A stretch of 39,382 nucleotides of DNA from a virus (lineage: Duplodnaviria > Heunggongvirae > Uroviricota > Caudoviricetes): IMG/VR virus record IMGVR_UViG_2923296884_000001; one strand, given 5' to 3'. The notes under the pieces are model-generated. The model searched no databases. It saw only the letters and a list, made by a program, of their open reading frames with translations, and was not told where the DNA came from. Numbering within the stretch: position 1 is the first letter of the stretch; each line of letters begins with the position of its first letter. This document shows positions 1,599 through 28,714 of the stretch, one piece after another. The translations under genes were made by a program, and so were the position numbers.

Positions 1599-1739
1599 TT
1601 ACTGCTTACACTGTAAGAACGCCGCAAACTCCGCTCCCCAGAAGCTCATCCGTATTTCACACAGCGAACCGTGTAGCATCCAGATGATGAGGATTACCGT
1701 CACGCAGAACGTGATGGCCGTAAGCGATTTTTGCGACAT
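1599..1739 (-). CDS. Hok/Gef-family type I toxin homologue (46 aa; below the ORF-track size cut-off)
   Basis: Minus-strand ORF with SD AAAGGAG ~8 nt before the ATG at 1739; translation MSQKSLTAITFCVTVILIIWMLHGSLCEIRMSFWGAEFAAFLQCKQ has an N-terminal TM helix plus the SLCEIR and VAAF-type motifs conserved in Hok/Gef; a perfect palindrome (GACGGGGAAG-ttgc-CTTCCCCGTC, 1566-1589) follows the stop. Confidence 0.55.
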   Translation of the reverse strand: MSQKSLTAITFCVTVILIIWMLHGSLCEIRMSFWGAEFAAFLQCKQ

Positions 1740-1930: not shown

Positions 1931-2191
1931 TTAATTCTGAGGTAAAGGCAAACTCATCTGATTGTTTCCCCTGTGTGAAGCTGGCAGCTCATGCCACGGG
2001 ATACCTTCTGAAGAGTGAACGCCGGAGGTGTGTTTTGATGTGAATTTATGGAAAGCTTCCAGTGTTGAGAAGCATACGCCGCATTCCAGGTTGTTACACT
2101 GGTAATACTTTTGCCGCACGGTGTTTGAATCATTTTCCGGACGACTGGTGCGGATACGGGCAGATGCGCCACAAAGCGGACAACGGAACAT
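1931..2191 (-). CDS. ogr: Ogr/Delta-family zinc-finger late-gene activator
   Basis: N-terminus MFRCPLCGASARIRTSR...YYQCNNLECGVCF matches the Ogr C-x2-C...C-x4-C zinc finger; SD AAGGGAGG upstream of the ATG at 2191; sits immediately after D as in P2. Confidence 0.8.
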   Translation of the reverse strand: MFRCPLCGASARIRTSRPENDSNTVRQKYYQCNNLECGVCFSTLEAFHKFTSKHTSGVHSSEGIPWHELPASHRGNNQMSLPLPQN

Positions 2192-2233: not shown

Positions 2234-3343
2234 TCACTCTGTTTCTGCTATCCATTCCGGGATTTTTGCCTCAAGCTCAAGCTGCGTGGTAAAGCCGCTG
2301 TTATCGATGGTGTGCTCGGCTTTTGCAATAATCCAGTCCTGATTATCAATCTCGCTTTTAAATCCTGTTACCGTGCCATGCATTTCGGGGTAGAGTTCTG
2401 CACGTCCACGCGCCAGCGTGATGGAGAATGATGCGGCTCCGCGTTGTAGTTGCTGCCACTTTGCCGCCGCTGCGCGTCTTGCTGCCTGCTCGTTCTGATA
2501 AGTCTTGCGTAACACAAACACATTGCCTTCCGCGCCTTCCATATAATCACCTTCACGGCTGCTGCTTTTCTCCTTTTTGGGTTTTGGCGGTTTACGGCGT
2601 TTCACGCTGACTTTTTTCTTTTTCCCGTAATTAAGATCAAGCCAGTAAGCGCGTACCCCCGTATACGCTTCGCGGTCAGCAATGCGGAACTGATGGCGAT
2701 CGCCGCTGCTGCGTGTGATGGCAAACGATGGCAACGGCTGGCCCTGTGCGTTCACGCCACCGCCGGGCATGATGAATAACAGATTACCGCTTTTTACCGT
2801 GGTGATTGCGCCCAGCATTTCTGCCATGCGCGTAAGGAAGGACATGTCGCTTTCTTCGGTCTGGTCGGCGTGGTCGATTTCGATATCCATCAGCATTTCG
2901 CTGATTTGCGGTTTCAGACCATACCGATGAGCGATGGCGGATACCACACGCTCAACGGTCACATCATGCCAGGACACCTCACGTTTAACGTTAAATTCAT
3001 CCCGAAAATCTGCGCTTCTGGCTGAAACAGTCAGCCTGTCCGGCGGTCCTTCGTGAGCGATTTCATCAACAATGTAAGTGCCTTTTTCTGTCAGCGGTTC
3101 TCCTTTCCAGCCAATGAGAACCGTCAGGCGCGCGCCCCGTGGCGGTAGCTGCAACTGACCATCCGCATCATCCAGCGTGATGGTGAGCTGGTCCGCGTCA
3201 AATCCCCGGTTGTCGGTCAGTGACAGGCTCATCAGGCGCTCTGCCACGCCTGACAGCGTTTTACCCTCCGCGAGAATATCAAAATCCGGCATTTTTACGG
3301 GGTCTGTGCCCTGACTGAGCAATTGCATGGTGGTGTCGGTCAT
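2234..3343 (-). CDS. D: tail protein D (late control gene D)
   Basis: ORF 2234..3475 matches P2 gpD along its length; start refined to the ATG at 3343 (MTDTTMQLL...) preceded by a GGGAGGGAG SD. Confidence 0.9.
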   Translation of the reverse strand: MTDTTMQLLSQGTDPVKMPDFDILAEGKTLSGVAERLMSLSLTDNRGFDADQLTITLDDADGQLQLPPRGARLTVLIGWKGEPLTEKGTYIVDEIAHEGPPDRLTVSARSADFRDEFNVKREVSWHDVTVERVVSAIAHRYGLKPQISEMLMDIEIDHADQTEESDMSFLTRMAEMLGAITTVKSGNLLFIMPGGGVNAQGQPLPSFAITRSSGDRHQFRIADREAYTGVRAYWLDLNYGKKKKVSVKRRKPPKPKKEKSSSREGDYMEGAEGNVFVLRKTYQNEQAARRAAAAKWQQLQRGAASFSITLARGRAELYPEMHGTVTGFKSEIDNQDWIIAKAEHTIDNSGFTTQLELEAKIPEWIAETE

Positions 3344-3500
3344 CTGCTCCCTCCCTGTGCGGCATGGTCGCATGTGCGTGCGGAGGGGGTTACTGCTTTT
3401 TGTTGTCGCCGTGGCGGGAGAACGGCGCAGGGGTGAGATTACGCGCGTGGTGGGTGATGATTGTTGCTGAATCATTTAACGGATACAAGGGGCTAAAGCT
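3344..3500. promoter_or_regulatory. divergent intergenic region between D and FI; candidate late promoter(s)
   Basis: 157-bp gap between divergent D and FI starts; contains TTGTTGT-N-AGAACGG, a motif also present upstream of P at 22975-23004. Confidence 0.4.
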
Positions 3501-4685
3501 ATGAGTGAAACTCGTTTTCATGGTGCCCGTGTTACGGAAAGTACCGACCTGGTAACAGCGATTAACGATGTTGATTCCAGCGTTATCGGTATCGTGGCAA
3601 CGGCGGATGATGCGGACGCGAAGCTGTTCCCGCTGAACAAGCCCACACTGCTGACCCGCGTCAATGACGTGCTGGGAAAATGCGGGACAACGGGGACGCT
3701 TTATCGTGCGCTTAAGGCCATCGCAGACCAGGTGAGCACAAAGGTGATCGTCGTTCGCGTGGCTGAACACAAAGAAGAAAACGGAAAGACGCAGGATCAA
3801 CTGGTTATCGGTGGTTCTGAATCTGACGGCAGCTATACGGGGATGTATGCGCTGCTTGTTGCAGAGCAGGATGAAAGCATCGGATACCGTCCGCGTATTC
3901 TGGCCGCGCCGGAGCTGGACACGGAGGCGGTGACAAAATCCCTGTGCGTGATTGCGGGTAAAGTGCGCGCGTTTGTGTATGCCACATGTCATGGTTGTAA
4001 CACGATGGCTGAGGCGATTACCTACCGCCAGAAATTCAACGAACGTGAGGTGATGCTCTTATGGCCTGACTTCATCGCCTACAACCCGAAAAGTGGCAAA
4101 AACGAAACGTTCCCCGCGCCTGCTTATGCGTGCGGCCTTCGTGCGTACATTGACCATGAGCAGGGCTGGCACAAATCGCTGTCCAACGTTCCGGTTAAAA
4201 ATGTGCTGGGGATGTCCAGGCATGTGTTCTGGTCGTTACAGGCCGAAGACAGTGATGCCAACAGCCTCAACAACAAAGAAATCACGACCATTATTCGTCG
4301 TAACGGGTTCCGCTTCTGGGGCAACCGCACACCGGAAACGAACGCCTACATCTTTGAGGTGTATACCCGAACCGCACAGGTGCTGGCTGATTCAATTGCG
4401 GAAGCGCAGTTTGAAACCATCGACAGTCCACTGACACCTGCGAACGTGAAGGATGTTATCAGCGCCATCAGAGCAAAACTGGATTCGCTGGTTACTGTCG
4501 GGAAACTGATTGGTGCGGAGTGCTGGTATGACGTGGTGGATAACAGCACCACGGGTTTACGTCAGGGGCGTGTGCGTATTCGCTACAAATATACGCCTGT
4601 TCCCCCGCTGGAAGACATGGAGCTTTACCAGTCGTTTACTGATGAATTCTTTGGTCCCGCATTTGCGGTGCTGGGAGGTGCCTGA
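3501..4685 (+). CDS. FI: tail sheath protein
   Basis: 394-aa ORF with sheath-protein features and P2 gpFI similarity; followed by the tube gene with ATGA overlap. Confidence 0.93.
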   Translation: MSETRFHGARVTESTDLVTAINDVDSSVIGIVATADDADAKLFPLNKPTLLTRVNDVLGKCGTTGTLYRALKAIADQVSTKVIVVRVAEHKEENGKTQDQLVIGGSESDGSYTGMYALLVAEQDESIGYRPRILAAPELDTEAVTKSLCVIAGKVRAFVYATCHGCNTMAEAITYRQKFNEREVMLLWPDFIAYNPKSGKNETFPAPAYACGLRAYIDHEQGWHKSLSNVPVKNVLGMSRHVFWSLQAEDSDANSLNNKEITTIIRRNGFRFWGNRTPETNAYIFEVYTRTAQVLADSIAEAQFETIDSPLTPANVKDVISAIRAKLDSLVTVGKLIGAECWYDVVDNSTTGLRQGRVRIRYKYTPVPPLEDMELYQSFTDEFFGPAFAVLGGA

Positions 4686-5197
4686 TGGCTGTACCAAAAC
4701 ATCTTCGCTTTTTTACGTTGTTTGTGGATGGTGAAAACGAAGTGGGTAAAGTGACATCCGTCACGCCACCCAAACTGACGCGCAAAACCGACAGCTATCG
4801 TGGTGGTGGCATGATGGGGGCGGTAAGTATTGATCTCGGTCTGGACGACTCCGCGCTTGATGCGAGTTTTGTCATGGGGGGAGCTGTTCGTGCGCTGTTC
4901 CTTAAATATGGCGGCACGATTGACGGCACGCTGCTGCGTTTTGCGGGTGAATACTACACCGATGCAGAAAGCGATCTGTATGAAATCGAGATGCGCGGGC
5001 GTGTGACGGAAATTGATATGGGGGAGGCCAAACAGGGCGAAGCCACATCACACACTTACGCTGTCAAAAACACCTACTACAAGCTGAGCGTTAACGATCG
5101 CCCGCTGTGGGAAATCGACCTGTTGAACCACATCTACCGGAAGGACGGCAAGGACATTGTGCCTGACCGCATTCGTTCCGCGCTTGGGCTTGGCTGA
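4685..5197 (+). CDS. FII: tail tube protein
   Basis: 170-aa ORF matching P2 gpFII, in the conserved position after the sheath gene. Confidence 0.93.
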   Translation: MAVPKHLRFFTLFVDGENEVGKVTSVTPPKLTRKTDSYRGGGMMGAVSIDLGLDDSALDASFVMGGAVRALFLKYGGTIDGTLLRFAGEYYTDAESDLYEIEMRGRVTEIDMGEAKQGEATSHTYAVKNTYYKLSVNDRPLWEIDLLNHIYRKDGKDIVPDRIRSALGLG

Positions 5198-5252
5198 TAA
5201 GTAATATGCAGGCGGCGCAGTGCGTCGCCTCTGACTGAAAAGGAGACAACTG

Positions 5253-5627
5253 ATGAAAGATATCGATACTGAAACCCGGAATAACACCGTAGCGGATGAT
5301 GTGACGGCAGGTGAGGATATGGCTGTCGAACGTGGTGTAAAACTTTCCCGGCCAATTGAGCGTGGTGGCGAAAAAATCACATATGTGGAGATCACCGGGG
5401 CTATTGAGCAGGCGGGATCCCTGCGTGGTCTGTCGCTGTCTGATGTGCTGAATCTGAAAGCGGATACCATGTTCACGCTGTTGCCTCGCGTGACCTCGCC
5501 ACGACTGGATGAAGTGATGATTAAAAAAATGTCGTCACGCGATTTTATTCGGTTGTGCGCTGTGGCTGTAAATTTTATGAGCGAGCCAGACTCTGGCGCG
5601 AAGAGCGTGCAGGAGACGGCAGCGTAA
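5253..5627 (+). CDS. E: tail assembly chaperone E
   Basis: 124-aa ORF in the conserved position between tube and tape-measure genes, with an overlapping -1 frame ORF as in P2 E/E'. Confidence 0.85.
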   Translation: MKDIDTETRNNTVADDVTAGEDMAVERGVKLSRPIERGGEKITYVEITGAIEQAGSLRGLSLSDVLNLKADTMFTLLPRVTSPRLDEVMIKKMSSRDFIRLCAVAVNFMSEPDSGAKSVQETAA

Positions 5628-5791
5628 TCACCCTGGTGTGCTTTGAGCACATCGAAGATCTGGTGGCGGATATTGCCGCCATTTTTAACTGGTCGCCCGC
5701 CGAAATCTTCATGATGACGCCCGGCGAAGTGGTTAGCTGGCGTGAGCGGGCGGCACTTCGCAGCGGGAATGCAGATAATGAAGACTCTTGA
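5555..5791 (+). CDS. E': E' extension (-1 frame) of the E+E' frameshift product; true junction lies upstream, about 5525-5555
   Basis: -1 frame ORF overlapping the 3' end of E and the 5' end of T; an A7 run at 5523-5529 sits where the -1 frame opens (stop at 5522-5524 in that frame). Confidence 0.65.
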   Translation: MRCGCKFYERARLWREERAGDGSVITLVCFEHIEDLVADIAAIFNWSPAEIFMMTPGEVVSWRERAALRSGNADNEDS

Positions 5792-8585
5792 CATCCGGGT
5801 CGCTTTCAGCGCCGTTGACAGGCTGACCCGGCCTGCCGAAAACGCCCGCCGCCTGATGGGGCAGTTTGGTGACTCCATCCAGCGAACGCAGGGGGCGATC
5901 AAAAATCTCGAGCGTCAGGCGCGTTCATTTGAGCGCGCCCGTGACGCTGTCAGTAAAGCGGATGCGGGTATCGTGAAAGCACGACGCCAGCTTAACGCCC
6001 TTAATCAGTTACAACGCACGGGTACAGTGCTCAGCGAAAAACAACAAAAGCTGATGCAGCAGTTAAGCACCCGGCTTGAACGCCTGAATGAATCGCGCAC
6101 ACGGGAAATTCAGAAAATGCGGGAACTTGGCGGAGAGCTGAAACGCCACGGCATTTCCCTGACAGGCAGCGATAACACCATCCAGCAGGCCATCAGACGC
6201 ACCGAACAGTACAACAACCAGCTTGAACGCGAACGGCAGGCGCTTGCGCGTGTAACGCGGGCGCGTGAGCGGTATTCGCGCGCGCAGGAAACCGCGGGAA
6301 AACTGAAAACAGGTGGTGCGCTGGCAATTGGTGCTGCAGCGGCTGGCGGCTATGCTGCCGGGCGTTTTTTGCAGCCTGCGATCGGGTTCGGCAAAGAGAT
6401 GTCCCGCGTTCAGGCACTGACGCGAATCGACAAAAACAGCCCGCAGTTTAAGGCGCTGCGTGAGCAGGCGTTAAAACTTGGTTCTGAAACACAGTTTACT
6501 GCGAGTGATGCCGCCAGTGGGCAGAGCTTTCTGGCAATGGCTGGTTTTACTCCGCAGGCCATTCAGGCCGCATTGCCCGGTGTTCTTAATATGGCGCTGG
6601 CAGGTGGCGTCGAACTCGGCGAGACGGCTGATATAGGCTCCAATATCCTCACACAGTTCAACCTGACAGCCGATCAAATGGACCGGGTTGGCGATACGCT
6701 GACAGCAGCATTCACCCGGACCAATACTGATTTACGCGCGCTGGGCGAAACCATGAAGTATACCGGTCCGGTTGCCGCAAAACTTGGTATCAGTCTTGAA
6801 GAAGCGGCGGCCATGGCCGGGATGCTTGCCAATAATGGTCTTCGCGGAAGCGATGCTGGTACGGCCATGCGCGCAAGTCTGTCCCGCCTTGCATCACCGC
6901 CAAAAGCTGCGGCTGATGCACTGAAAGAGCTGGGGGTGTCAGTTGCTGACGCCAGAGGCAAAATGCGCCCGATGGAGGATGTGCTGCTTGATCTCTATAA
7001 GGCGACACAAAAATACGGACAGGTGGACCAGGTTTCCTTCTTCAAGGACATCGCCGGAGAAGAGGCGTTCGTTGGTTTACAGACGCTTGTTGCGGCGGCT
7101 GGTTCAGGAGAGCTGCAAAAACTGACCAGAGAATTGCAGGGGGCAAGGGGAGAGGCCGATCGCGTTGCAAAAGTAATGGCCGATAATCTTGATGGGGACC
7201 TGAAAAATCTCGACAGCGCATGGGAAGGTCTTCGTATTCGCATCAGTGATCTGGTTGACGGTCCGCTGCGTTCTGTCACGCAGTGGCTCACGCGGGTGCT
7301 TGAAAAAATCACCTCGCTGGCGCAGGCCCATCCGGTACTGACGCGCCAGCTACTGATAGCAGGCGGTGCGTTGCTGGCAATGACTGCAACGATTGGCTCG
7401 TTGTCGCTGGTTATTGGGGTGCTTTACGGAAAGCTGGCCACCCTGCGTCTTGGTTTTGACATTCTTACCCGGTCAATGAATGTCGTCCGGGTGTTGCCTG
7501 CGCTGTGGGGAATGCTGACGGGTTCTGTTTCTTTGCTGGGAGGCGCTATCGGGGCGCTGTTCAGTCCGGTTGGATTGATTGCTGCTGCGTTTGTGGCTGC
7601 GGCGGTTCTCATCTGGAAATACTGGGAACCCATTAAGGCGTTTTATGCCGGGGTGTTCAACGGGATTATGGAAAGGCTGACCCCGTTGCGCGAAACCTTT
7701 GAACGGTTTGGTCCTGTTTTTGACGCAATCGGAAGCGGGATCAGCCAGGTGTTTAACTGGTTTAAATCGCTGCTGTCACCGATGGAGTCCAGCAAGGAAA
7801 CGCTGGATAAATGTACCAGTGCTGGCGAGATATTCGGTAACGTTCTTGGTGGCGCGTTACAGCTTGTTCTGACGCCTGCAAAAATGTTGCTGGATACGCT
7901 GGCGTGGATACTTGAAAAACTCGGTGTTCTTCCGGATGAAGCGGAAAGGGCGAGAAAGAAAATCGAAGACGCACAGCGTGCGGCCATTCTTCAGGACAAG
8001 GTTACCTTGCTTCAGGGGGACCTGGCGAAAATCAATCCGCCGAAGCCTGTGGAAAATGGCAATGGCACCGGAGGTGATAACCCCAAAGACAATAAACCGC
8101 TCACAGACAGCAATACCGGGACGCTGCGCAGACTCAGCAAAATTGCTGATAACACAGGTAAGCTGGTTGAGGAGACGAAAAAACGCATTGGCCCCGGCGA
8201 TATTGTCTTTAAAAACCTGCCCCGAGCACTTGCTGTTCGTGGGGAGTGGCAGGAGCGGAAGATTGCGCAGGTCAGTAAGCCTGCCCCCGCAATTAATATC
8301 ACACCCGTGGTCCCGGCTCCGCTGCCTCCGGCGCTGGTCCCTGTTGTTGCGGCCAGCTCCCGCCCGGTGGCGGAGGCCATACGATCTCCAGTGGCATCAG
8401 TTCCTGTAACTTCCCGTAACCGGGAGCCTGTTGCCTCCGGATTTGGTGGTGAAATTCATGTTCATCTGCATAACGTTGTTACGCAGAATCCCCGCGAACT
8501 GGCGAAACTGGTCGGTGAAATGGTCAGGGCAGAAATGGAACGGCGTGCCCGTGCCGGGCGTGGCAGTTTTTACGATAAAGATTGA
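5769..8585 (+). CDS. T: tail tape-measure protein
   Basis: About 940-aa ORF with coiled-coil N-terminal half, Gly/Ala-rich hydrophobic segments and a Pro-rich C-terminus, in the P2 gpT position; start (5742, 5769 or 5778) overlaps E'. Confidence 0.9.
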   Translation: MQIMKTLDIRVAFSAVDRLTRPAENARRLMGQFGDSIQRTQGAIKNLERQARSFERARDAVSKADAGIVKARRQLNALNQLQRTGTVLSEKQQKLMQQLSTRLERLNESRTREIQKMRELGGELKRHGISLTGSDNTIQQAIRRTEQYNNQLERERQALARVTRARERYSRAQETAGKLKTGGALAIGAAAAGGYAAGRFLQPAIGFGKEMSRVQALTRIDKNSPQFKALREQALKLGSETQFTASDAASGQSFLAMAGFTPQAIQAALPGVLNMALAGGVELGETADIGSNILTQFNLTADQMDRVGDTLTAAFTRTNTDLRALGETMKYTGPVAAKLGISLEEAAAMAGMLANNGLRGSDAGTAMRASLSRLASPPKAAADALKELGVSVADARGKMRPMEDVLLDLYKATQKYGQVDQVSFFKDIAGEEAFVGLQTLVAAAGSGELQKLTRELQGARGEADRVAKVMADNLDGDLKNLDSAWEGLRIRISDLVDGPLRSVTQWLTRVLEKITSLAQAHPVLTRQLLIAGGALLAMTATIGSLSLVIGVLYGKLATLRLGFDILTRSMNVVRVLPALWGMLTGSVSLLGGAIGALFSPVGLIAAAFVAAAVLIWKYWEPIKAFYAGVFNGIMERLTPLRETFERFGPVFDAIGSGISQVFNWFKSLLSPMESSKETLDKCTSAGEIFGNVLGGALQLVLTPAKMLLDTLAWILEKLGVLPDEAERARKKIEDAQRAAILQDKVTLLQGDLAKINPPKPVENGNGTGGDNPKDNKPLTDSNTGTLRRLSKIADNTGKLVEETKKRIGPGDIVFKNLPRALAVRGEWQERKIAQVSKPAPAINITPVVPAPLPPALVPVVAASSRPVAEAIRSPVASVPVTSRNREPVASGFGGEIHVHLHNVVTQNPRELAKLVGEMVRAEMERRARAGRGSFYDKD

Positions 8586-8591
8586 GGAGTC

Positions 8592-9086
8592 ATGGCCATG
8601 ATGATGATCTATGGCATGTTTGTTTTTGAGCTGCGCACATTGCCGCATCAGCAGTTACAGCAAAACAAAAGCTGGCGGCATGTGAAAAATGAACGCGTTA
8701 ATCGTTCAGCAAGCTGGCAGTATATCGGCGCAGGTGATGATCGCATCGTGCTTTCCGGCGTGCTTTATCCTGAAATTACAGGTGGCGAAGTGTCGCTTTC
8801 GTTGCTGACCACGCAGGCATATACAGGACGCCCCTGGCCTCTGATTGATGGTGTCGGGCAGATTTACGGCATGTATGTACTGACTGAAACGAATACGACC
8901 CGTTCCGAGTTTGATCGCTACGGTAAGGCGAAAAAGATAGAATTTTCACTGACTCTTGAACGCTGTGATGAGGATTTGCGGGAGCGCCTGCAATCCTCAT
9001 CGTTCAGTGATATGCTGTCCGGCTTCAAAGATAAGGTCACATCATCCCTTAACAGCGCGGCCAGCTCCGTTAAAGGGCTGTTTTGA
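8592..9086 (+). CDS. U: tail protein U
   Basis: 164-aa ORF immediately after T with similarity to P2 gpU (MFVFELRTLPHQ... vs P2 MFVFMRQTLPHQ...). Confidence 0.9.
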   Translation: MAMMMIYGMFVFELRTLPHQQLQQNKSWRHVKNERVNRSASWQYIGAGDDRIVLSGVLYPEITGGEVSLSLLTTQAYTGRPWPLIDGVGQIYGMYVLTETNTTRSEFDRYGKAKKIEFSLTLERCDEDLRERLQSSSFSDMLSGFKDKVTSSLNSAASSVKGLF

Positions 9087-9093: not shown

Positions 9094-9123
9094 AAAACCG
9101 CTAATGGTCAGATTAGCGGTTTT
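9094..9123. terminator. palindromic hairpin between convergent U and invertase genes (bidirectional terminator candidate)
   Basis: AAAACCGCTAAT-ggtcag-ATTAGCGGTTTT perfect 12-bp inverted repeat, A-run on one side and T-run on the other; overlaps the invertase stop codon. Confidence 0.5.
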
Positions 9124-9712
9124 CATTTTCCTGAGTCTGCCTGGTTGTTTCTTCAGCCTGTATATCGCCTACAGGGTGATAACGATAAATCGTCGATATG
9201 CCGATGTCGTAAATGATCGCCAGTTGTTTCCTGTCATGACCGTTTTTAATCAGCCTCGCTATTTGCTCGTGTTGTTCTTTTGTCAACTTCGGGCGACGTC
9301 CGCCAATGCGTCCTTGTGCGCGTGCTGCTGCCAGCCCGGCCAGTGTACGCTCTACAATTAATTCACGTTCCATTTCGGCTAAAGCCCCCATGACGTGAAA
9401 AAAGAAACGCCCCATGGGTGTTGATGTGTCAATGCTGTCCGTCAGACTACGGAAATTAACACCTTTTTCCCGCAATTCCTCAATAAGCGTGATCAGGTGT
9501 TTCATACTTCTGCCCAGTCTGTCCAGCTTCCAGACAACCAGCGTATCTCCTTCTGATAGCGTTCTGAGCAGTTTTTTCAATCCCGGTCTGGTTGATTTCG
9601 TTCCGCTGATTTTATCTTCAAAAATCAGTTCACATCCTGCGCAGTTCAGTGCATTGCGTTGTAAATCCGTGTTCTGGTCGTTTGTTGACACACGAATATA
9701 GCCAATTTGCAT
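9113..9712 (-). CDS. serine-recombinase DNA invertase (Hin/Gin/Cin/Pin family)
   Basis: Translation from the ATG at 9712, MQIGYIRVSTNDQNTDLQRNAL..., carries the catalytic serine (GYIRVSTNDQ) and a C-terminal HTH; lies right next to an inverted-repeat-flanked tail-fibre segment. Confidence 0.93.
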   Translation of the reverse strand: MQIGYIRVSTNDQNTDLQRNALNCAGCELIFEDKISGTKSTRPGLKKLLRTLSEGDTLVVWKLDRLGRSMKHLITLIEELREKGVNFRSLTDSIDTSTPMGRFFFHVMGALAEMERELIVERTLAGLAAARAQGRIGGRRPKLTKEQHEQIARLIKNGHDRKQLAIIYDIGISTIYRYHPVGDIQAEETTRQTQENENR

Positions 9713-9726
9713 AAAAAACATCCTCT

Positions 9727-10245
9727 TTGTTTCGTGAAAAATACAGAGTTGGTATAGGTAGGGATAAAAACGAAAACGTTGGTTTAGGAGAAGGCTCGGC
9801 GCTACCCGTTGGTGTGCCTGTTCCGTGGCCCACTGCCACACCGCCAGCAGGCTGGTTACAGTGCAACGGAGCTACGTTCACCAAAGAACAATATCCTGTT
9901 CTGGCCAGAGTCTACCCGACCCTCCGTCTTCCCGATTTGCGCGGTGAGTTTATCCGTGGATGGGACGGTGGTCGCAAGGTTGATACCGGGCGTACGGTAC
10001 TTTCATTTCAGGAAGGGACTATCGTATCCGGTTTTGATGATAATAATACCGGAGATATCAGTTCGCTCGGCTCTACACAATACGGATTTGGTGACGCTTT
10101 AACCTCTAATCAACTGGGGGTCATAAATGGCAAAAAGTGGATATTTGATGCATCCTCTAAAGGTGCACAAAGATATGACTGGTGGGCTTATGTATCAGCT
10201 CGCCCCCGCAATATCGCATTTAACTATATCGTGAGGGCGGCGTGA
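9727..10245 (+). CDS. alternative tail-fibre C-terminal cassette (Hv'), promoterless in the current orientation
   Basis: Opens inside the left inverted repeat with no plausible start of its own (ORF-track start is a TTG); ends ...RPRNIAFNYIVRAA, matching the conserved P2-type fibre C-terminus. Confidence 0.8.
   Translation: MFREKYRVGIGRDKNENVGLGEGSALPVGVPVPWPTATPPAGWLQCNGATFTKEQYPVLARVYPTLRLPDLRGEFIRGWDGGRKVDTGRTVLSFQEGTIVSGFDDNNTGDISSLGSTQYGFGDALTSNQLGVINGKKWIFDASSKGAQRYDWWAYVSARPRNIAFNYIVRAA
9765..9790. other. gix/hix-like crossover site (left)
   Basis: Reverse complement TTCTCCTAAACCAACGTTTTCGTTTT shares its first 17 nt with the right-hand site; resembles the 26-bp gix architecture with AAACC half-sites. 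Confidence 0.5.
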
Positions 10246-10251
10246 TACCGT

Positions 10252-10866
10252 TCAACTGGCAAGTGCCAGTGGTGCTTCCGGCCAGATGATTTCAGGTGCC
10301 GTGCTGATATCCAGTGCGTTCAGCTCGTCGATATAATCCAGCACGGCGTTCAGTTTTGCCGTTTCTTCTGGTGTCAGACTGCGACCAGCACGCAGTTTGA
10401 GGTTGATAAGATCGACGGACGCCATCGCCTGTTTCACCCGTTGCTGGCGTTGCTGTCTGGCAACCTCCAGTTCTGCGGTTCGCTGCCGTTCAGTATCGGT
10501 TACCCACGCCTCACCGTTCCAGGTATCCCATGGCGTGGCTGGCTGTTTTGTGGTGGTGTCCGCCGGGTAATCACCCGGTTGGGTAATCAGAACGGGGTTA
10601 CCGTTCTCCGTGCTGTATACCGTCTCGCCGCGGTGATCAGGCACATGCTCCCACCCGTTCAGCGTGGCAGTCCGGCAAACCACGTAACCCGAAATTGCCT
10701 CCGGCGGTGCATCGGCGCACGAATGTGCCGGAGTACCCACCCCAAGGGCGAGATACTCCACAGAGGATGAGGTGTATTCCCGGGTTTCCTCGTCATAGTG
10801 ATATACAGTGATATCGCCCGCTACAGTGGCGATACCGTTTTCATCCAGAACTGCAGTGTTACTCAT
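10252..10866 (-). CDS. tail fibre assembly chaperone (Tfa / P2 gpG-like)
   Basis: 204-aa ORF translationally coupled (TAATG) to the upstream fibre C-terminal ORF; variable N-terminal half and conserved C-terminal half typical of Tfa proteins. Confidence 0.85.
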   Translation of the reverse strand: MSNTAVLDENGIATVAGDITVYHYDEETREYTSSSVEYLALGVGTPAHSCADAPPEAISGYVVCRTATLNGWEHVPDHRGETVYSTENGNPVLITQPGDYPADTTTKQPATPWDTWNGEAWVTDTERQRTAELEVARQQRQQRVKQAMASVDLINLKLRAGRSLTPEETAKLNAVLDYIDELNALDISTAPEIIWPEAPLALAS

Positions 10867-11108
10867 TAAACTGCCCTCACAATGTAATTAAGTGCAATGC
10901 TACGGGGTCTGACAGTGATACCCTTCGCATACCCGCTTCTGATAGAGGTCAGAATAGTAGCCTGCATACCATTGTCTGACATTGCTATGACAGGATCGCT
11001 GAATGTTGTCCCGTCCGGCATTTTAAAGCTGCCCTCACGAAGGTCTGTAATGGAATCTTCATTGTTGAATCCCATGCCGACTATCCCGAGGTTCCCGTAG
11101 TGTCCTGG
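10866..11108 (-). pseudogene. distal part of the currently fused fibre C-terminus, in a different frame from H (frameshifted end)
   Basis: This frame is open from 11108 and ends ...RPRSIALNYIVRAV, the conserved fibre terminus, while the H frame stops at 11081; the two frames overlap at 11081-11108. Confidence 0.5.
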
Positions 11109-12688: not shown

Positions 12689-13293
12689 GCGTTTACTCTC
12701 AGATTATCAATTAAATGAATGGCCGGGGCAGGGAAATAATCCCCTTCGACAATAATGGACTCCGGGGTGTAGGGATAAACCGTCAGGGCGTCGCCGTAAT
12801 AGCATCCCGTACCAACGAAAATCTTTCCGTTCACACTCAGGCTGATCGCCAGCCCCGTCAGATGGCGACTTACTGGTTTTGCATCCGCAATAAGGCGCTC
12901 AAGTTCCTGATACATTTCATCGGTGATGCCCTGATCAAGTACTCCGACAACAATGCGAAATGTCCCAGGCTCCTCATTGAGTTGCCACCACTCCTTTACT
13001 TCAATCAGGTAGCCGAGAGGCTCCACGGCTCTTCGCAGTGCGCTGATGGTCCCTTTGTGTCGGTGTATCAGCCATGCATCACGAATTACCTGTCGCTTTG
13101 TCTCTTCCGGCCAGTTGCGATCCCAGCGGTCAACGGAAAACGCCCAGGCGAGATAAGGCAGCAGATGCACCGGGCAGGTGTCCGGCGACCACAACGTGTT
13201 GAGGTCTACCGGAATGTCTGTAATGCGTGTTCCGACGGCTTCGGCACAACGCATGAAATTGCTGGCTGATGGTGGTAACAACGAATTACTCAT
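12685..13293 (-). CDS. I: baseplate protein I
   Basis: P2 gpI-like ORF; start taken as the ATG at 13293 (MSNSLL..., SD AAGGTGGA); overlaps the J stop and the H start as in P2. Confidence 0.85.
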   Translation of the reverse strand: MSNSLLPPSASNFMRCAEAVGTRITDIPVDLNTLWSPDTCPVHLLPYLAWAFSVDRWDRNWPEETKRQVIRDAWLIHRHKGTISALRRAVEPLGYLIEVKEWWQLNEEPGTFRIVVGVLDQGITDEMYQELERLIADAKPVSRHLTGLAISLSVNGKIFVGTGCYYGDALTVYPYTPESIIVEGDYFPAPAIHLIDNLRVNA

Positions 13294-14182
13294 TGCGTCC
13301 ACCTTCGCTGATGGTGAATGACTCACAGCGCGCCGCCTGTATGTCGCTGATGGCCATATTCTGTGTGGGTTCGATTATCTCCACGCGTTGCACACCGTGC
13401 ACATGCAGTGCGGCAGCAATGGCGGACAACGCCACGTCCTGACCGATAAGCCCCTGCTCAGCCAGCCACTTCCTGAACGACGATTCAGCCGCCGCCAGAA
13501 TAGGTTCGGATTCCGGGCCGGGGTAAAAGTACAGTTTTGCATTCAGCCGCCATGTCACGATTCTGGCGCTCTGTACAGTAAGGCGGTCGGCCACCGGGCG
13601 GGTATCCTCTGCATTCAGAACGGCGCGAACGGTATTAAGCAACGCCTCCGTTGCTGTGCCGTCGCCTTCAGTGGACAGGATGGAAACCGTCACATTTGCC
13701 GGAGACGGACTGATAGCCCGCGCATCACGCACCAGACCGCTGGCGCTGCGGGCAAAATACTCGTATGCACCTGACGGGCCAGCAACACTCAGGCCATCGT
13801 ACGCCCGCTGCGCCCGCAGTCTCAGCGAGGTGTCACTTTCCATCACTGCGTCGGTGGTATCTGTTGCCGGAGTGATGGTCAGGCGCTTTGTGTTCATATT
13901 GCCCGCGAGGTTGTCCAGGTCTGTCCCGGCGCTGTGGCTTAACATGCAGGCGCGTGCCCCCTCATTGACCCGCTGGCGTAACAGCATTTCACGAAAAGAC
14001 ATGGTTTGAGCGATAACGTTCAGGGGTTCCGATTCCAGCTCCAGCGCGGCGGAGACGGCTTCACGCTGTTCGGCAGGATAGGACGCAATCATCATGGCCT
14101 TTGTGTCAGCCAGAATTGCCTCAAAATCAGGCTTCGCGATGATGGCGGGTTCCGGTAACTGGGAAAGGTCAACAGCAGGCAT
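13286..14182 (-). CDS. J: baseplate wedge protein J
   Basis: 298-aa ORF with P2 gpJ similarity and conserved position. Confidence 0.9.
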   Translation of the reverse strand: MPAVDLSQLPEPAIIAKPDFEAILADTKAMMIASYPAEQREAVSAALELESEPLNVIAQTMSFREMLLRQRVNEGARACMLSHSAGTDLDNLAGNMNTKRLTITPATDTTDAVMESDTSLRLRAQRAYDGLSVAGPSGAYEYFARSASGLVRDARAISPSPANVTVSILSTEGDGTATEALLNTVRAVLNAEDTRPVADRLTVQSARIVTWRLNAKLYFYPGPESEPILAAAESSFRKWLAEQGLIGQDVALSAIAAALHVHGVQRVEIIEPTQNMAISDIQAARCESFTISEGGRNE

Positions 14183-14185
14183 GAT

Positions 14186-22070: not shown

Positions 22071-22907
22071 TCAGAAGTCAGCCAGTTGATCGGAGGCTGC
22101 GCCCGTTGCGGTGAACCGGTTCTGCGGATCGCCGTCCTGCGTGCGCAGTTTTTCCTTCAGTGCTGTCAGCTCTGTGGTCAGTAAAGTGATTTTCTGGCTG
22201 TCCTGCTGATGGCGGGTTTCCAGCGCATTAAAACGGTCGATAATGTCGGCCTGTGACGTTGCGACGCCTTCCACCGCTTCCTGAATACGGGAGAAACTGG
22301 CGTCATCCGCTTTGCGGCCACGGCCAATAATCCCCATTACGCGGTTAAACCACTGGGTGCCTTCTTCCTGGCGTTGTTCTGCCATTTCGATGATTTCAGA
22401 CTCGATGGCTTCGGAGATAAGCGGTGCTTCACCCTGGACACTGTTGAACGTCATCACCGCCTGACGTTGCTGTGCCGTGAATTTCAGGCGTTCAGTGCCC
22501 AGGCTTGCCGGGGTGTCGGTCATCGCCAGCCCGACCAGATAGGCGCGCCCGTTAACGGAGAACTGCGGGTGCAATTCGATACTGGAATAGATTTTCTTGC
22601 CGTCCGCGACAAGCTGCTTCATGCGCTCGGTCGGTTCGATTTCTGCATACAGCGCAGTACGTCCGGCCAGCGGACCTTCCGTAATGTCTTCCGTACTCAG
22701 CGCGGTGACATCGCCCATTGCGGAAAATTCGCTTGACGGGCATGGCGAGAGATAGTGCTCAACGTTCACGCGGGCGGCGTAAACATCCGGGTTGAAGTTC
22801 TCGGCGGCTTCACGCAGATGCACCGGACTGATTTCGCGGCCATCAACAGTTGATCCGGAGACAGCCACGCGAAACTTTTTGCGGGATGTCTTTTTTTCAT
22901 TAGCCAT
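22071..22907 (-). CDS. O: capsid scaffolding protein O
   Basis: P2 gpO-like ORF; start refined to the ATG at 22907 (MANEKK..., SD GAGGGG). Confidence 0.88.
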   Translation of the reverse strand: MANEKKTSRKKFRVAVSGSTVDGREISPVHLREAAENFNPDVYAARVNVEHYLSPCPSSEFSAMGDVTALSTEDITEGPLAGRTALYAEIEPTERMKQLVADGKKIYSSIELHPQFSVNGRAYLVGLAMTDTPASLGTERLKFTAQQRQAVMTFNSVQGEAPLISEAIESEIIEMAEQRQEEGTQWFNRVMGIIGRGRKADDASFSRIQEAVEGVATSQADIIDRFNALETRHQQDSQKITLLTTELTALKEKLRTQDGDPQNRFTATGAASDQLADF

Positions 22908-23061
22908 AGTTTTTGCCCCTCTGACTGGTTCTTCAGTCATGATGGCAAAGCGTAACAGGCTGATACAAAGGGCTTTTGTTGTAAGAAAACGGCCAGAACA
23001 GGGGGTTAAGGAGAACGGTTTCGCGCGCGGGTAATCTTCCTGTAATTACTCAGGGGGAGCA
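22908..23061. promoter_or_regulatory. divergent late promoter region between O and P
   Basis: 154-bp gap between divergent O and P starts, as in P2; contains TTGTTGT-N-AGAACAGG (22975-23004), similar to the motif upstream of FI. Confidence 0.45.
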
Positions 23062-24813
23062 ATGATTCAGGACGCTTTTGTGCGCCAGCGTGCGCGGCAA
23101 CTTTACTGGCAGGGTTATCCGCCCGCAGAAATCTCACGTCTGATGGGAATAAACCCGAACACGATTTATGCGTGGAAAAAACGCGACCAGTGGGATGAAA
23201 CGCCACCCGTGCAGCGTGTCACGCAGTCCATCGATGCGCGCCTCATCCAGCTTACTGAAAAACAGAATAAAACAGGTGGTGACTTCAAGGAAATAGACCT
23301 GCTGACCCGGCAGCTTAAAAAACTGCATGATGGCCAGCCAGATGCGACGGCCACAGGAAAGAAAGGCCGGGCGAAAAAACTTAAAAATCATTTCACGCCG
23401 GAACAGATTGCTGCACTGCGGGAAAAAATCATCAGCAGGCTGGAGTGGCATCAGCGGGGCTGGTTTGACTCCCTGACTCTTTGCAGGGAAGCCGGGATAC
23501 GTAACAGGATGATCCTGAAATCCCGACAGATTGGGGCGACCTGGTATTTTGCACAGGAAGCACTGCTGATGGCGCTGCGTGACGATGTGGCGCAACCTTA
23601 CCAGCGTAACCAGATTTTTTTGTCTGCGTCGCGTCGTCAGGCGTTCCAGTTTAAAAGCATTATTCAGAAGGTCGCATCTGAAGTTGATGTGGAGCTGAAA
23701 GGGGGCGATAAAATCATCCTCTCCAACGGCGCAGAGCTGCATTTTCTTGGTACTTCTGCTGCGACGGCACAGTCCTACACGGGCAATTTTTATTTTGATG
23801 AATTTTTCTGGGTCAGTCGCTTTGCTGAACTGCGCAAGGTGGCTGGCGCTATGGCAACCCTCAGCGGACTGCGGCGCACCTACTTCTCCACGCCATCCAC
23901 CGAAACGCACGAGGCATACGCCTACTGGAACGGCGACCGCTGGAACGAGAAAAAGGCCTCGCATAAACGCCAGCGTTTTTCTGTGGACTGGAAAACGCTG
24001 CATAACGGGCTTATCTGCCCCGACCGGACGTGGCGGCAAATTGTCACGCTGGAAGATGTGGTTAATCACGGCTGGAAACACACCGATATTGATGAAATTC
24101 GTGATGAAAACACCGAAGACGAGTTCCTCAATCTCTATATGTGTGAGTTTGTCCGCGAAGGGGAATCGGCATTTAACCTGAATATCCTGATTGGCTGTGG
24201 TGTTGACGGATACGACGACTGGAAAGACTGGAAACCTTTTGCTCCCCGCCCGATGGGGAATCGTCCGGTATGGATTGGGTATGACGCAAACGGCAGCAGT
24301 GGAAACGGCGACAGCGGCGCTGTGTCCGTGGTGGTTCCTCCGGCTGTTCCTGGCGGCCGTTTTCGAACGGTGGAGACGCGACGCGTTCAGGGGCTGGAGT
24401 TTGAAGAACAGGCCAGAGTCATTGAAGAGTTCACGTGTCGCTACAACGTGGAACACATCGGCATTGATGTGACAGGCGGGAACGGGGAGGCTGTTTATCA
24501 GATAGTGAAACGGTTTTTCCCTGCTGCTATTCCGTACACCTTCACGCTGTCATCAAAACGGTCGCTGGTACTGAAAATGCTGCAAATAATGCGTGCCGGG
24601 CGGTGGGAATACGATCGCGCCGAACGCGAGCTGGTCGCGGCCTTTAACGCCGTGCGTAAGGTGAAAACACCGGGCGGCTTTATCACTTACGAAACGGACC
24701 GCGCGAGGGGGATCAGCCACGGCGACCTTGCGTGGGCAACCATGCTTGCTGTCATTAACGAACCAATTGGCGGCGAAGGAGAAAACGAGCGTTTCACGGT
24801 TATGGAGTTCTGA
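23062..24813 (+). CDS. P: terminase large (ATPase) subunit P
   Basis: 583-aa ORF with P2 gpP similarity. Confidence 0.95.
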   Translation: MIQDAFVRQRARQLYWQGYPPAEISRLMGINPNTIYAWKKRDQWDETPPVQRVTQSIDARLIQLTEKQNKTGGDFKEIDLLTRQLKKLHDGQPDATATGKKGRAKKLKNHFTPEQIAALREKIISRLEWHQRGWFDSLTLCREAGIRNRMILKSRQIGATWYFAQEALLMALRDDVAQPYQRNQIFLSASRRQAFQFKSIIQKVASEVDVELKGGDKIILSNGAELHFLGTSAATAQSYTGNFYFDEFFWVSRFAELRKVAGAMATLSGLRRTYFSTPSTETHEAYAYWNGDRWNEKKASHKRQRFSVDWKTLHNGLICPDRTWRQIVTLEDVVNHGWKHTDIDEIRDENTEDEFLNLYMCEFVREGESAFNLNILIGCGVDGYDDWKDWKPFAPRPMGNRPVWIGYDANGSSGNGDSGAVSVVVPPAVPGGRFRTVETRRVQGLEFEEQARVIEEFTCRYNVEHIGIDVTGGNGEAVYQIVKRFFPAAIPYTFTLSSKRSLVLKMLQIMRAGRWEYDRAERELVAAFNAVRKVKTPGGFITYETDRARGISHGDLAWATMLAVINEPIGGEGENERFTVMEF

Positions 24814-25859
24814 TGAGCAGAAAAAATAAAAAAGTGCGCATGAGTTCACGCATTGATCTCGCTGATGCGCTCAGGAAAGAATCATCGCTCAGTGCATTCA
24901 CATTTGATGGTCCTTATCGCCTGACCGGGCATGACCTGCTGGACAATATGTACTGTGCTGATAACGGGCGGTGGTATGAAACCCCGGTGGACTGGTACGG
25001 TCTGGCAAGAGCAGCCCGGCAAACGTCCTGGCATCAGTCTGCGCTTTACTTTAAGCGCAATGTATTACTCGGTTGCTACATCCCGCACCCGCTGCTTTCC
25101 CGGCAGGATTTCTCGGCGCTGGCGCTGGACTGGTTTGTGTTCGGTAACGCATTCCTTGAGCTTCGAAGCAATATGCTCGGCGAACCGCTTAAATTACGGC
25201 ACGCCCTGGCGAAATATATGCGACGCGGAAGCGATCTTGAATCATGGTGGTATGTGCAGGATGGCAAGGACGCGTTTCAGTTTCGTCCTGGCAAAGTGTG
25301 CCACCTGATGAATCCGGATATTAACCAGGAAATCTACGGCATGCCGGAATATCTTGGCGCATTACTCTCGGCCAGCCTTTCTCATTCGGCGGACATGTTC
25401 AGAAAACTGTACTACGACAACGGATCCCACGCCGGGTGCATCATCTACATCGGTGCAGCGCAGGTAAACCGCGAAAGCATGGACTCCCTGAAAGAAACGC
25501 TACAGGGGGCACGTGGTGGTGGTGCGTTTAAAAACGTGCTCATTCATGCGCCCAACGGGGGCAAAGAGGGGGTGCAAATTTTGCCGTTCCAGCAGATCAC
25601 CGCAAAAGATGAATTCATGAATGTTAAGGCGGCATCCCGTGATGATGTGCTGGCTGCGCACCGCGTTCCGCCGCAACTGATGGGGGCGATGCCGGGCGAA
25701 AAAAGTGCGTTTGGCGATGTGGAGAAGGCAGCGCGGGTTTACGCAATTAACGAGCTGATGCCCGTCATGGAGGCTATGAAGCACATCAATGACTGGCTTG
25801 GCGAAGAGGTGATCCGTTTTAACTCTTATGCTCTTCTTGATGAAAAAACAGCCCCGTGA
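24813..25859 (+). CDS. Q: portal protein Q
   Basis: 348-aa ORF with P2 gpQ similarity; start overlaps the P stop (TGATGA). Confidence 0.93.
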   Translation: MSRKNKKVRMSSRIDLADALRKESSLSAFTFDGPYRLTGHDLLDNMYCADNGRWYETPVDWYGLARAARQTSWHQSALYFKRNVLLGCYIPHPLLSRQDFSALALDWFVFGNAFLELRSNMLGEPLKLRHALAKYMRRGSDLESWWYVQDGKDAFQFRPGKVCHLMNPDINQEIYGMPEYLGALLSASLSHSADMFRKLYYDNGSHAGCIIYIGAAQVNRESMDSLKETLQGARGGGAFKNVLIHAPNGGKEGVQILPFQQITAKDEFMNVKAASRDDVLAAHRVPPQLMGAMPGEKSAFGDVEKAARVYAINELMPVMEAMKHINDWLGEEVIRFNSYALLDEKTAP

Positions 25860-28710: not shown

Positions 28711-28714
28711 TGGT

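What the first reader, a model, noticed from the sequence alone, without database searches (positions are those of the whole stretch)
3395..3430. Shared TTGTTGT-N-AGAAC(A/G)G motif upstream of FI and of P
The same motif appears about 75-100 bp upstream of the FI start (3395-3430) and about 60-85 bp upstream of the P start (22975-23004). It resembles, but does not exactly match, the TGT-N12-ACA dyad that Ogr-type activators recognise in P2 late promoters. It supports a late promoter driving the inverted FI-U block.
Basis: partly seen in the sequence, partly recalled or inferred. Interest (0 to 1): 0.3.

Follow-up and report, generated by a model that had tools for sequence, protein, structure and literature searches.

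The report
Ogr-type late promoter sites, shared bidirectionally
The shared motif is real and is the binding site for this P2-like prophage's late-gene activator (an Ogr homologue), lying once between genes D and FI and once between O and P, where each copy probably switches on both outward-facing late operons; it is an expected regulatory element, not a new kind.

Summary
TTGTTGT-N12-AGAAC occurs exactly twice in the 39 kb window, at 3400-3423 and 22976-22999. Both copies lie in the two spacers that separate divergent late genes (D<>FI and O<>P).

The window is a P88-like (Xuanwuvirus) prophage next to serS. It encodes an Ogr/Delta zinc-finger homologue at 1931-2191(-).

The core reads TGT-N12-AGA. 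That is the canonical Ogr dyad TGT-N12-ACA with the correct spacing and one mismatch. The annotated P2 and 186 sites (TGT-N12-CCA) are equally imperfect.

A weight matrix built only from sites in other genera and P2 ranks these two positions first and second in the window (22.9 and 21.6 bits). The third hit scores 15.3, and the best of 200 shuffles scores 20.1.

Relatives whose Ogr is 36-63% identical keep the motif at the same place while the flanks diverge. Among 78 close relatives the half-sites are invariant, but 9 of 12 spacer bases vary.

-10-like hexamers sit 43.5-44.5 bp from the dyad centre on both sides. This is the geometry of the mapped P2 PP/PO pair. Each site therefore probably serves two divergent promoters (FI and D-ogr; P and O).

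This is a new member of a known kind, of low to moderate interest.

The parts
3399..3424 (+). Activator site 1 in the D<>FI spacer: TTTGTTGT-CGCCGTGGCGGG-AGAACG. Core TGT(3404-3406)-N12-AGA(3419-3421); dyad centre 3412.5.
   Evidence: Exact motif. Matrix score 21.6 bits, rank 2 in the window. Conserved in relatives. Half-sites invariant and spacer variable in 78 close relatives.
22975..23000 (+). Activator site 2 in the O<>P spacer: TTTGTTGT-AAGAAAACGGCC-AGAACA. Core TGT(22980-22982)-N12-AGA(22995-22997); dyad centre 22988.5.
   Evidence: Exact motif. Matrix score 22.9 bits, rank 1. Conserved in L093-L096.
3456..3461 (+). Predicted -10 of the FI promoter (GATGAT). Predicted start about 3468.
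   Evidence: Lies 43.5 bp from the dyad centre. GATTAT or GATGAT sits at the same offset in relatives. P2 PF has GAAAAT at 44.5 and a mapped start at 56.5-58.5. Invariant in close relatives. Inferred; the start is not mapped.
3364..3369 (-). Predicted -10 of a D-ogr promoter (GACCAT on the - strand). Predicted start about 3357, 13-14 nt before the D ATG at 3343.
   Evidence: Mirror position, 43.5 bp from the dyad centre. AATCAT, GATACT or AACCAT sits at 43.5-44.5 in relatives. Invariant in close relatives. Inferred.
23032..23037 (+). Predicted -10 of the P promoter (TAATCT). Predicted start about 23044.
   Evidence: Lies 43.5 bp from the dyad centre. GGTAATCT is conserved in L093-L095. P2 PP has TAGCCT at the same offset, with a mapped start 55.5 bp from its centre. 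Inferred.
22939..22944 (-). Predicted -10 of the O promoter (CATCAT on the - strand). Predicted start about 22932, 25 nt before the O ATG at 22907.
   Evidence: Lies 44.5 bp from the dyad centre. CATCAT or GATGAT sits at the same offset in L093-L095. Inferred.
1931..2191 (-). ogr homologue, the presumed activator that reads the two sites. Cysteine pattern CX2C-X24-CX4C.
   Evidence: Translation. Pfam Ogr_Delta PF04606, 52.4 bits. 42% identity to P2 Ogr over 53 aa. Cysteines and the RTS motif conserved.
2234..3343 (-). Gene D (tail/baseplate hub), divergent from FI and followed by ogr.
   Evidence: Pfam Phage_GPD. Annotation of P88 and of relatives.
3501..9086 (+). FI-FII-E/E'-T-U tail block, inverted relative to its orientation in P2.
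   Evidence: Pfam sheath domains. Annotation of U15A, P88 and Shae_phiSM. P2 gene order.
22071..22907 (-). Gene O (capsid scaffold), first gene of the long O...H late unit (22907 down to about 10917).
   Evidence: Pfam Phage_GPO, 304 bits. PGAP start in U15A. No gap and no matrix hit upstream of V.
23062..25859 (+). Genes P (large terminase) and Q (portal).
   Evidence: Pfam terminase domains. Annotation.

Best explanation
The two motif copies are binding sites for the prophage's own Ogr-type zinc-finger late activator, encoded at 1931-2191(-). Each is a degenerate dyad, TTTTGTTGT-N12-AGAAC, whose ideal form is TTGTTGT-N12-ACAACAA.

Each dyad is centred about 55 bp upstream of a weak promoter that has a -10 but no -35. 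By analogy with P2 and 186, the bound activator recruits host RNA polymerase through the alpha subunit.

Each site lies midway in a spacer between divergent late genes and is flanked by mirror-image -10 elements. One site therefore most likely fires two promoters. Site 1 drives FI-FII-E-T-U rightward and D-ogr leftward. Site 2 drives P-Q rightward and the long O...H unit leftward. Two sites would thus run all four late transcription units.

If D-ogr is a late unit, ogr is also under positive feedback.

Shown here: the motif, its uniqueness in the window, its conservation, its geometry, and the presence of the activator gene.

Inferred: binding by Ogr, the start sites, use in both directions, and the alpha-subunit contact.
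For: - Only two exact copies exist, both in late divergent spacers.
- A matrix built from other genera and P2 ranks them first and second, above all 200 shuffles.
- An Ogr homologue is present.
- The records of P2 and 186 annotate sites that read TGT-N12-CCA. They also annotate one shared site for pO/pP and one for pV/p12. In P2 the mapped starts lie 55.5 bp either side of the dyad centre.
- The literature states that Ogr binds inverted repeats centred near -55 and needs a contact with the alpha subunit (PMC3152322). It gives the consensus as TGT-N12-ACA (PMC3931495).
- Relatives with the same D<>FI layout keep the motif at the same position while the flanks diverge. L086-L088 and L092 have Ogr 55-63% identical. 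L093 (Reipivirus), L094 (Novemvirus), L095 and L096 (SEN4) have Ogr 36-48% identical. L095 and SEN4 carry perfect TGT-N12-ACA.
- In 14 spacers, a -10-like hexamer lies 43.5-44.5 bp from the centre in 14 of 14 on the D/O side and in nearly all on the FI/P side. Other offsets score 0-2.
- In 78 close relatives the half-sites are invariant, while 9 of 12 spacer bases vary.
- Neither spacer holds a sigma-70 consensus promoter.
- Satellites that encode a similar activator (about 70% identical) carry the perfect palindrome TTTTGTTGT-N12-ACAACAAAA in a divergent spacer with the same -10 geometry.
Against: - There are no transcript, start-site or binding data for this phage group. All function is inferred from homology and geometry.
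- The right half-site is weak: AGAACGG and AGAACAG match 4-5 of 7 bases of ACAACAA.
- The -10-like hexamers match TATAAT at only 3-4 of 6 positions.
- The predicted D leader is very short, about 13 nt.
- The relatives are homologous, so their conserved spacers are not independent samples.
- A promoter-like match inside the 3' end of D (2371-2342, - strand) could give ogr its own promoter, but it is at chance level.
Confidence: 0.85

Rival explanations
1. The sites are Ogr-type activator sites, but each serves one direction only (FI and P). D-ogr and O would then be transcribed from other promoters, independent of Ogr or using unrecognised elements.
For: - The half-sites are asymmetric. The strong TTTTGTTGT half is always distal to FI and P, as in P2 PF, PO and PV.
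- The -10-like hexamers on the D and O sides are weak: GACCAT and CATCAT.
- A chance-level promoter-like match lies in the 3' end of D.
Against: - The P2 and 186 records annotate one site for both divergent promoters, with mapped starts symmetric about it.
- Neither the 157 bp nor the 154 bp spacer holds a second matrix hit or a sigma-70 consensus promoter.
- A -10-like hexamer sits at the mirror offset in 14 of 14 spacers on the D/O side.
- O, the first gene of the head, lysis and tail unit, must be late-expressed and has no other candidate site.
Confidence: 0.1
2. The motif binds a different protein, for example a host nucleoid protein, the immunity or Cox regulator, or terminase. Its resemblance to the Ogr dyad would then be coincidental.
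For: No binding data exist. The T-run plus GTTGT half-site is longer than the classical TGT core.
Against: - The location, the N12 spacing, the distance to the -10 and the perfect TGT-N12-ACA versions in L095 and SEN4 all match the Ogr/B system.
- The motif co-occurs with Ogr/Delta homologues even in satellites that lack the helper's other regulators.
- It is absent from the early and immunity region of the window.
Confidence: 0.03
3. Chance similarity between two intergenic stretches, with no function.
For: Relaxed versions of it occur at chance frequency.
Against: - About 0.005 exact matches are expected and two are seen, both in late divergent spacers.
- An independent matrix ranks them top, above all shuffles.
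- The motif is conserved across genera, and the half-sites are invariant against a variable spacer.
Confidence: 0.02

Closest known systems
Phage P2 late promoters PF and the shared PP/PO activator site (Ogr-dependent)
   Same: - Left half TGTTGT, N12 spacing and an imperfect right half.
- Dyad centre 55-58 bp from the mapped starts, with the -10 hexamer 43.5-44.5 bp from the centre.
- No -35 element.
- One site is annotated for both pO and pP.
- Location upstream of FI and between O and P.
   Different: - The right half is AGAAC here and CCAAC/CCATC in P2. The mismatch falls at the second rather than the first base of ACA.
- In the O<>P spacer the strong half faces O here but faces P in P2.
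- P2 has a separate PV promoter, and its D and ogr lie at the end of the F operon. Here there is no room for PV, and D-ogr is divergent from FI.
Phage 186 B-protein sites (the shared pV/p12 site, and pJ)
   Same: - A single B site (3798-3817) is annotated as activating both divergent promoters.
- The sites read GTTGT-N12-CCA.
- pJ precedes the FI homologue, and its start lies 57.5 bp from the dyad centre.
- The late transcript reads into the activator gene.
   Different: 186 keeps the P2 gene order, with J (the FI homologue) to D in one operon. The B protein is 32% identical to the window protein.
P4-type satellite Delta-dependent promoters; here the satellites L089 and L090
   Same: The activator belongs to the same Ogr/Delta family and is about 70% identical. 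The site is TTTTGTTGT-N12-ACAACAAAA in a divergent spacer, with -10-like hexamers at 43.5-44.5 bp.
   Different: The satellite site is a perfect palindrome and is flanked by extra 10 bp inverted repeats (GTGTAATACA). I did not examine phage P4 itself.
Predicted PP'/PO' of Stenotrophomonas phage Smp131 (PMC3931495)
   Same: A published in-silico assignment of one TGT-N12-ACA-like dyad to both divergent promoters of a rearranged P2-like phage.
   Different: A distant host and phage. Like the present case, the assignment has no experimental support.

Membership tests
Ogr/B/Delta-dependent late promoter of P2-like phages (activator site plus promoter) | Partial dyad TGT-N12-ACA with exact 12 bp spacing | tested here: met
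   Both sites read TGT-N12-AGA: 5 of 6 bases with N12 exact. The annotated P2 and 186 sites read TGT-N12-CCA, also 5 of 6. The strict pattern does not match, so the feature is met at the level of known functional members, not as a perfect consensus.
Ogr/B/Delta-dependent late promoter of P2-like phages (activator site plus promoter) | Dyad centred about 55 bp upstream of the transcription start | tested here: inconclusive
   No start sites are mapped. -10-like hexamers lie 43.5-44.5 bp from the centres, as in P2, where the starts are mapped at 55.5-58.5 bp. Consistent, but indirect.
Ogr/B/Delta-dependent late promoter of P2-like phages (activator site plus promoter) | Weak -10 and no recognisable -35, so the promoter is inactive without the activator | tested here: met
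   The consensus scan finds no sigma-70-type promoter in 3344-3500 or 22908-23061. The -10 candidates match 3-4 of 6 bases.
Ogr/B/Delta-dependent late promoter of P2-like phages (activator site plus promoter) | Located upstream of morphogenetic (late) operons: P, O, FI | tested here: met
   Site 1 lies between D and FI. Site 2 lies between O and P.
Ogr/B/Delta-dependent late promoter of P2-like phages (activator site plus promoter) | A cognate C4 zinc-finger activator of the Ogr/Delta family is encoded by the element | tested here: met
   1931-2191(-) hits PF04606 at 52.4 bits against a cut-off of 26.3. It is 42% identical to P2 Ogr. Four cysteines are conserved with CX2C-X24-CX4C spacing; P2 has X22.
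Ogr/B/Delta-dependent late promoter of P2-like phages (activator site plus promoter) | Transcription depends on the activator and on the alpha C-terminal domain of host RNA polymerase | not testable with these tools
   This needs reporter or transcript assays with and without ogr, and an rpoA109-type host.
Shared (bidirectional) activator site of divergent late promoters, as in P2 pO/pP and 186 pV/p12 | A single dyad midway between two divergent promoters, with mirror-image -10 elements | tested here: met
   There is one matrix hit per spacer. -10-like hexamers lie at 43.5-44.5 bp on both sides in the window and in 14 of 14 (D/O side) and nearly all (FI/P side) relatives' spacers. The precedents are annotated.
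Shared (bidirectional) activator site of divergent late promoters, as in P2 pO/pP and 186 pV/p12 | Activator-dependent starts in both directions | not testable with these tools
   This needs 5' end mapping or reporters in both orientations.

The most novel reading that the evidence does not exclude
In P88-like phages and the related genera Reipivirus, Novemvirus and Senquatrovirus, the FI-U block is inverted, so the old PF activator site now lies between FI and D. The most novel reading is that this single asymmetric dyad drives both FI-U and a new late unit, D-ogr.

The whole late programme, four units, would then run from only two activator sites, with no PV, and ogr would be under direct positive feedback.

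The dyad symmetry of the site would be what allowed the operon to invert without losing regulation. The alternating CG tract just upstream of the -10 in PP and PD might be an additional promoter element specific to this clade.
Probability: 0.55. Interest if true: 0.35.

Novelty: new member of a known kind. Interest (0 to 1): 0.25.

Why it matters
P88-like prophages are common in E. coli. In the RefSeq set, 350 of 5,426 complete genomes hold at least 80% of the first 25 kb of this window.

No promoter analysis of this group was found in the searched library. The P88 paper mentions neither promoters nor ogr.

Placing the two activator sites gives a compact and testable model of the late programme: four transcription units run from two sites. 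It also shows how a dyad-symmetric site can let an operon invert and still be regulated. It predicts which satellites could be switched on by, or could switch on, these helpers, because they carry the same half-site.

It does not change what is known about Ogr-type activation.

Tried and rejected
- The strict pattern TGT-N12-ACA gave 6 hits in the window against 9 expected. None lies at a late promoter, so the literal consensus is useless here.
- Relaxed motif versions with 2 mismatches were at chance level.
- A candidate third site at 28390-28415 (TGT-N12-AAT, 12.8 bits) was rejected. Its score is in the shuffle range, and the TGTTGT is the tail of an intergenic hairpin at 28367-28392.
- Matrix hits at 4714-4739 (inside FII) and 18560-18585 (inside the lysB-like gene) score 15.3 and 14.8 bits. 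They are within the shuffle range and are not near gene starts.
- The IMG/VR scan with the FI protein returned only relatives 97-99% identical. These served for the spacer-variation test but not for distant footprinting. Distant relatives came instead from Ogr homologues and their contigs and from the phage collection.
- The original papers on P4 and P2 promoter mutagenesis (PMC207153, PMC177091) are not held. I therefore could not check whether a change of ACA to AGA was ever tested.
- I tested whether the CGCGCG tract is specific to late promoters. (CG)3 is common genome-wide, with 32 copies in the window against 20 expected. Only the positional conservation is notable.

Full report
**What the window is**

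The first 25 kb match E. coli chromosomes at up to 99.8% identity. The window starts in serS and ends in a phage integrase. Region 2200-5200 matches phage P88, Xuanwuvirus P884B11 and Citrobacter phage Shae_phiSM at 94-98%. The window is therefore a P88-like (Xuanwuvirus, Peduoviridae) prophage.

The gene map comes from the annotation of relatives and from Pfam:

| Gene or block | Coordinates | Strand |
|---|---|---|
| hok | 1599-1739 | - |
| ogr homologue | 1931-2191 | - |
| D | 2234-3343 | - |
| FI-FII-E/E'-T-U | 3501-9086 | + |
| invertase and invertible tail-fibre segment | 9113-10910 | mixed |
| H-I-J-W-V-S-R | about 10917-16206 | - |
| DUF6645 gene | 16230-18107 | - |
| lysis genes, X, L, M, N, O | up to 22907 | - |
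| P and Q | 23062-25859 | + |
| early genes and int | beyond 25859 | mixed |

Compared with P2, only the FI-U block is inverted. This puts the 5' end of FI next to the 5' end of D. The layout is not peculiar to this prophage. Every relative examined has it, including members of Reipivirus, Novemvirus and Senquatrovirus.

**The observation**

- 3400-3425 reads TTGTTGT CGCCGTGGCGGG AGAACGG.
- 22976-23001 reads TTGTTGT AAGAAAACGGCC AGAACAG.

These are the only exact matches to TTGTTGT-N12-AGAAC on either strand. Relaxed versions of the pattern are at chance level, and the literal TGT-N12-ACA hits neither site.

Site 1 lies in the 157 bp D<>FI spacer. Site 2 lies in the 154 bp O<>P spacer, taking the O start at 22907 as PGAP does.

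**Comparison with known sites**

The P2 record annotates three activator sites with mapped starts:
- 3057-3087, annotated for both pO and pP;
- 10239-10266, for pV;
- 17555-17583, for pF.

Read directly, these are TGTTGT-N12-CCATC (pO/pP), GGTTGT-N12-CCAAC (pF) and TGTTGT followed by a less regular right half (pV).

The 186 record annotates one B-protein site (3798-3817, GTTGT-N12-CCA) for both pV and p12. It annotates another (14091-14110, GTTGT-N12-CCA) for pJ.

The window motif therefore shares the left half and the N12 spacing with known sites. It differs from the ideal ACAAC by one base (AGAAC), just as the P2 and 186 sites do (CCAAC). The published consensus is TGT-N12-ACA, and the activator cysteine motif is CX2CX22CX4C (PMC3931495). 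Ogr binds inverted repeats centred near -55 and needs a contact with the alpha subunit of RNA polymerase (PMC3152322).

**The activator**

The ORF at 1931-2191(-) translates to MFRCPLCGASARIRTSR...YYQCNNLECGVCF.
- It hits Pfam Ogr_Delta at 52.4 bits.
- It is 42% identical to P2 Ogr over 53 residues.
- It keeps the four cysteines, with a two-residue insertion between the pairs.

**An unbiased test**

I built a 26-column weight matrix from 16 sites taken only from other phages: P2 (3 sites), SEN4 (3), L093, L094 and L095 (2 each), and L086, L087, L088 and L092 (1 each).

| Position in window | Score (bits) | Note |
|---|---|---|
| 22975-23000 | 22.9 | rank 1 |
| 3399-3424 | 21.6 | rank 2 |
| 4714-4739 | 15.3 | inside FII |
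| 18560-18585 | 14.8 | inside the lysB-like gene |

The maxima of 200 shuffles had mean 13.7 and top value 20.1. The window therefore holds exactly two sites. There is none upstream of V, where S and V abut and leave no room for a PV promoter.

**Conservation**

Ogr homologues 36-85% identical led to contigs and phage genomes with the same D<>FI arrangement. When these are aligned on the dyad, most flanking sequence is unalignable. Three features persist:
- the block CTTTTTGTTGT-N12-A(G/C)A(A/C)C;
- a -10-like hexamer on each side;
- a CG-rich tract in PP and PD.

Klebsiella CP052639 (L095) and Salmonella SEN4 (L096) carry perfect TGT-N12-ACA dyads at these positions. SEN4 has a third such dyad in its S-V gap. 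The Symbiopectobacterium relative L087 has a weaker right half, AGGCC.

In 78 close relatives from IMG/VR there are 38 distinct spacers. Among them:
- TTTTTGTTGT and AGAA never vary;
- the distance to the FI ATG is fixed;
- 9 of the 12 spacer bases vary, giving at least 11 spacer variants.

This is the pattern expected of a bipartite protein site whose spacer is not read.

**Geometry and bidirectionality**

In P2 the dyad centre (3071.5) lies 55.5 bp from both mapped starts (3016 and 3127). The hexamers 43.5 bp from the centre are TAGCCT and GAAACT.

The corresponding hexamers in the window are:

| Promoter | Hexamer | Coordinates | Distance from centre |
|---|---|---|---|
| FI | GATGAT | 3456-3461 | 43.5 bp |
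| D | GACCAT | 3369-3364, - strand | 43.5 bp |
| P | TAATCT | 23032-23037 | 43.5 bp |
| O | CATCAT | 22944-22939, - strand | 44.5 bp |

Across 14 spacers (the window plus relatives), I counted hexamers with A at position 2, T at position 6 and at least 3 of 6 matches to TATAAT. On the D/O side such a hexamer lies at offset 43 or 44 in 14 of 14 spacers. On the FI/P side there are 12 at offset 43 and 3 at offset 44. Every other offset from 20 to 65 has 0-3.

Neither spacer holds a sigma-70 consensus promoter. I therefore infer four activator-dependent promoters fired from two shared sites. The predicted starts are near 3468, 3357, 23044 and 22932.

The predicted O start lies downstream of the alternative ATG at 22940. 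This supports 22907 as the true start of O.

**Independent support from satellites**

Two Ogr/Delta homologues, listed at 69% and 71% identity, lie in P4-like elements. These elements carry an integrase, a primase and a P2-type capsid gene. Their divergent spacer carries the perfect palindrome TTTTGTTGT-N12-ACAACAAAA, with GATAAT and AAGATA at 43.5-44.5 bp on either side. This defines the ideal full half-site for this activator clade. It also shows that the helper's right half is a weakened version of it.

**Limits**

- There are no transcripts, start sites or binding data for this group. The P88 paper mentions neither promoters nor ogr.
- The relatives' spacers are homologous, so their agreement is not independent replication.
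- The -10 candidates are weak.
- The predicted D leader is only about 13 nt.
- Bidirectional use rests on the P2 and 186 annotations, the mirror-image geometry and the absence of any alternative site.

**Verdict**

This is a new member, in a rearranged genome layout, of the well-known Ogr/B/Delta late-promoter class. It is of low to moderate interest.

Noticed in passing
window 16230-18107 (-): A 625-aa gene with DUF1737, SASA (sialate O-acetylesterase-like) and DUF6645 domains sits inside the late O...H unit, between the lysis genes and R. Shae_phiSM has no gene at that place, so it looks like a cargo gene (moron) expressed with the late genes.
   Followed up: partly
L089 4524-4553; L090 4531-4560: P4-like satellites (integrase, primase, P2-type capsid gene) encode Ogr/Delta homologues about 70% identical to the window's. 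They carry the perfect palindrome TTTTGTTGT-N12-ACAACAAAA in a divergent spacer. The spacer also holds 10 bp inverted repeats, GTGTAATACA/TGTATTACAC, about 25 bp from the centre on each side and again at +68, which may be sites for another regulator.
   Followed up: partly
window 3407-3418 (N12 spacer of site 1), compared with L005-L084: Among 78 near-identical relatives, 9 of the 12 spacer bases vary, giving at least 11 variants. The flanking half-sites are invariant. The spacer varies far more than the rest of the 157 bp intergenic region. The reason for this local hypervariability is unknown.
   Followed up: partly
window 23022-23029 and 3370-3383; L096 9298, 20827 and 3012; L095 8983: An alternating CG (or purine-pyrimidine) tract lies just upstream of the predicted -10 of PP and PD, and of PV in SEN4. 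In SEN4 and L095 the longest (CG)n runs of the whole genome lie at these promoters. However, (CG)3 is common genome-wide, with 32 copies in the window against 20 expected.
   Followed up: partly
L001 (OR565851.1) 2294-4745: The GenBank labels of Citrobacter phage Shae_phiSM are shifted by one gene. The gene D homologue is labelled ogr/Delta-like, and the tail sheath gene is labelled late control gene D (compared).
   Followed up: no
window 28399-29674 (-) and 1599-1739 (-): The prophage carries plasmid-type genes: ParM and a partition/stability protein in the early region, and a Hok/Gef toxin gene next to ogr. Together they suggest plasmid-like maintenance functions in a P2-like phage.
   Followed up: no
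window 28367-28392: An intergenic GC-rich hairpin (TCAGGGCG-GATG-CGCCCTGA, roughly 28363-28392 with its flanking bases) lies between the ClpX-type zinc-finger gene and the partition gene. The TGTTGT after it produced a weak, chance-level matrix hit.
   Followed up: yes
window 9113-10910: A serine invertase gene lies directly after U, next to an invertible tail-fibre and assembly segment of the Gin/Cin type. Partial tail-fibre ORFs lie on both strands.
   Followed up: no
L004 (E. coli U15A) 2234-3087, compared with window 2234-3343: In the 99.8% identical U15A prophage, gene D is annotated as a shortened 801 nt gene plus a pseudogene fragment. In the window the D reading frame is intact.
   Followed up: no
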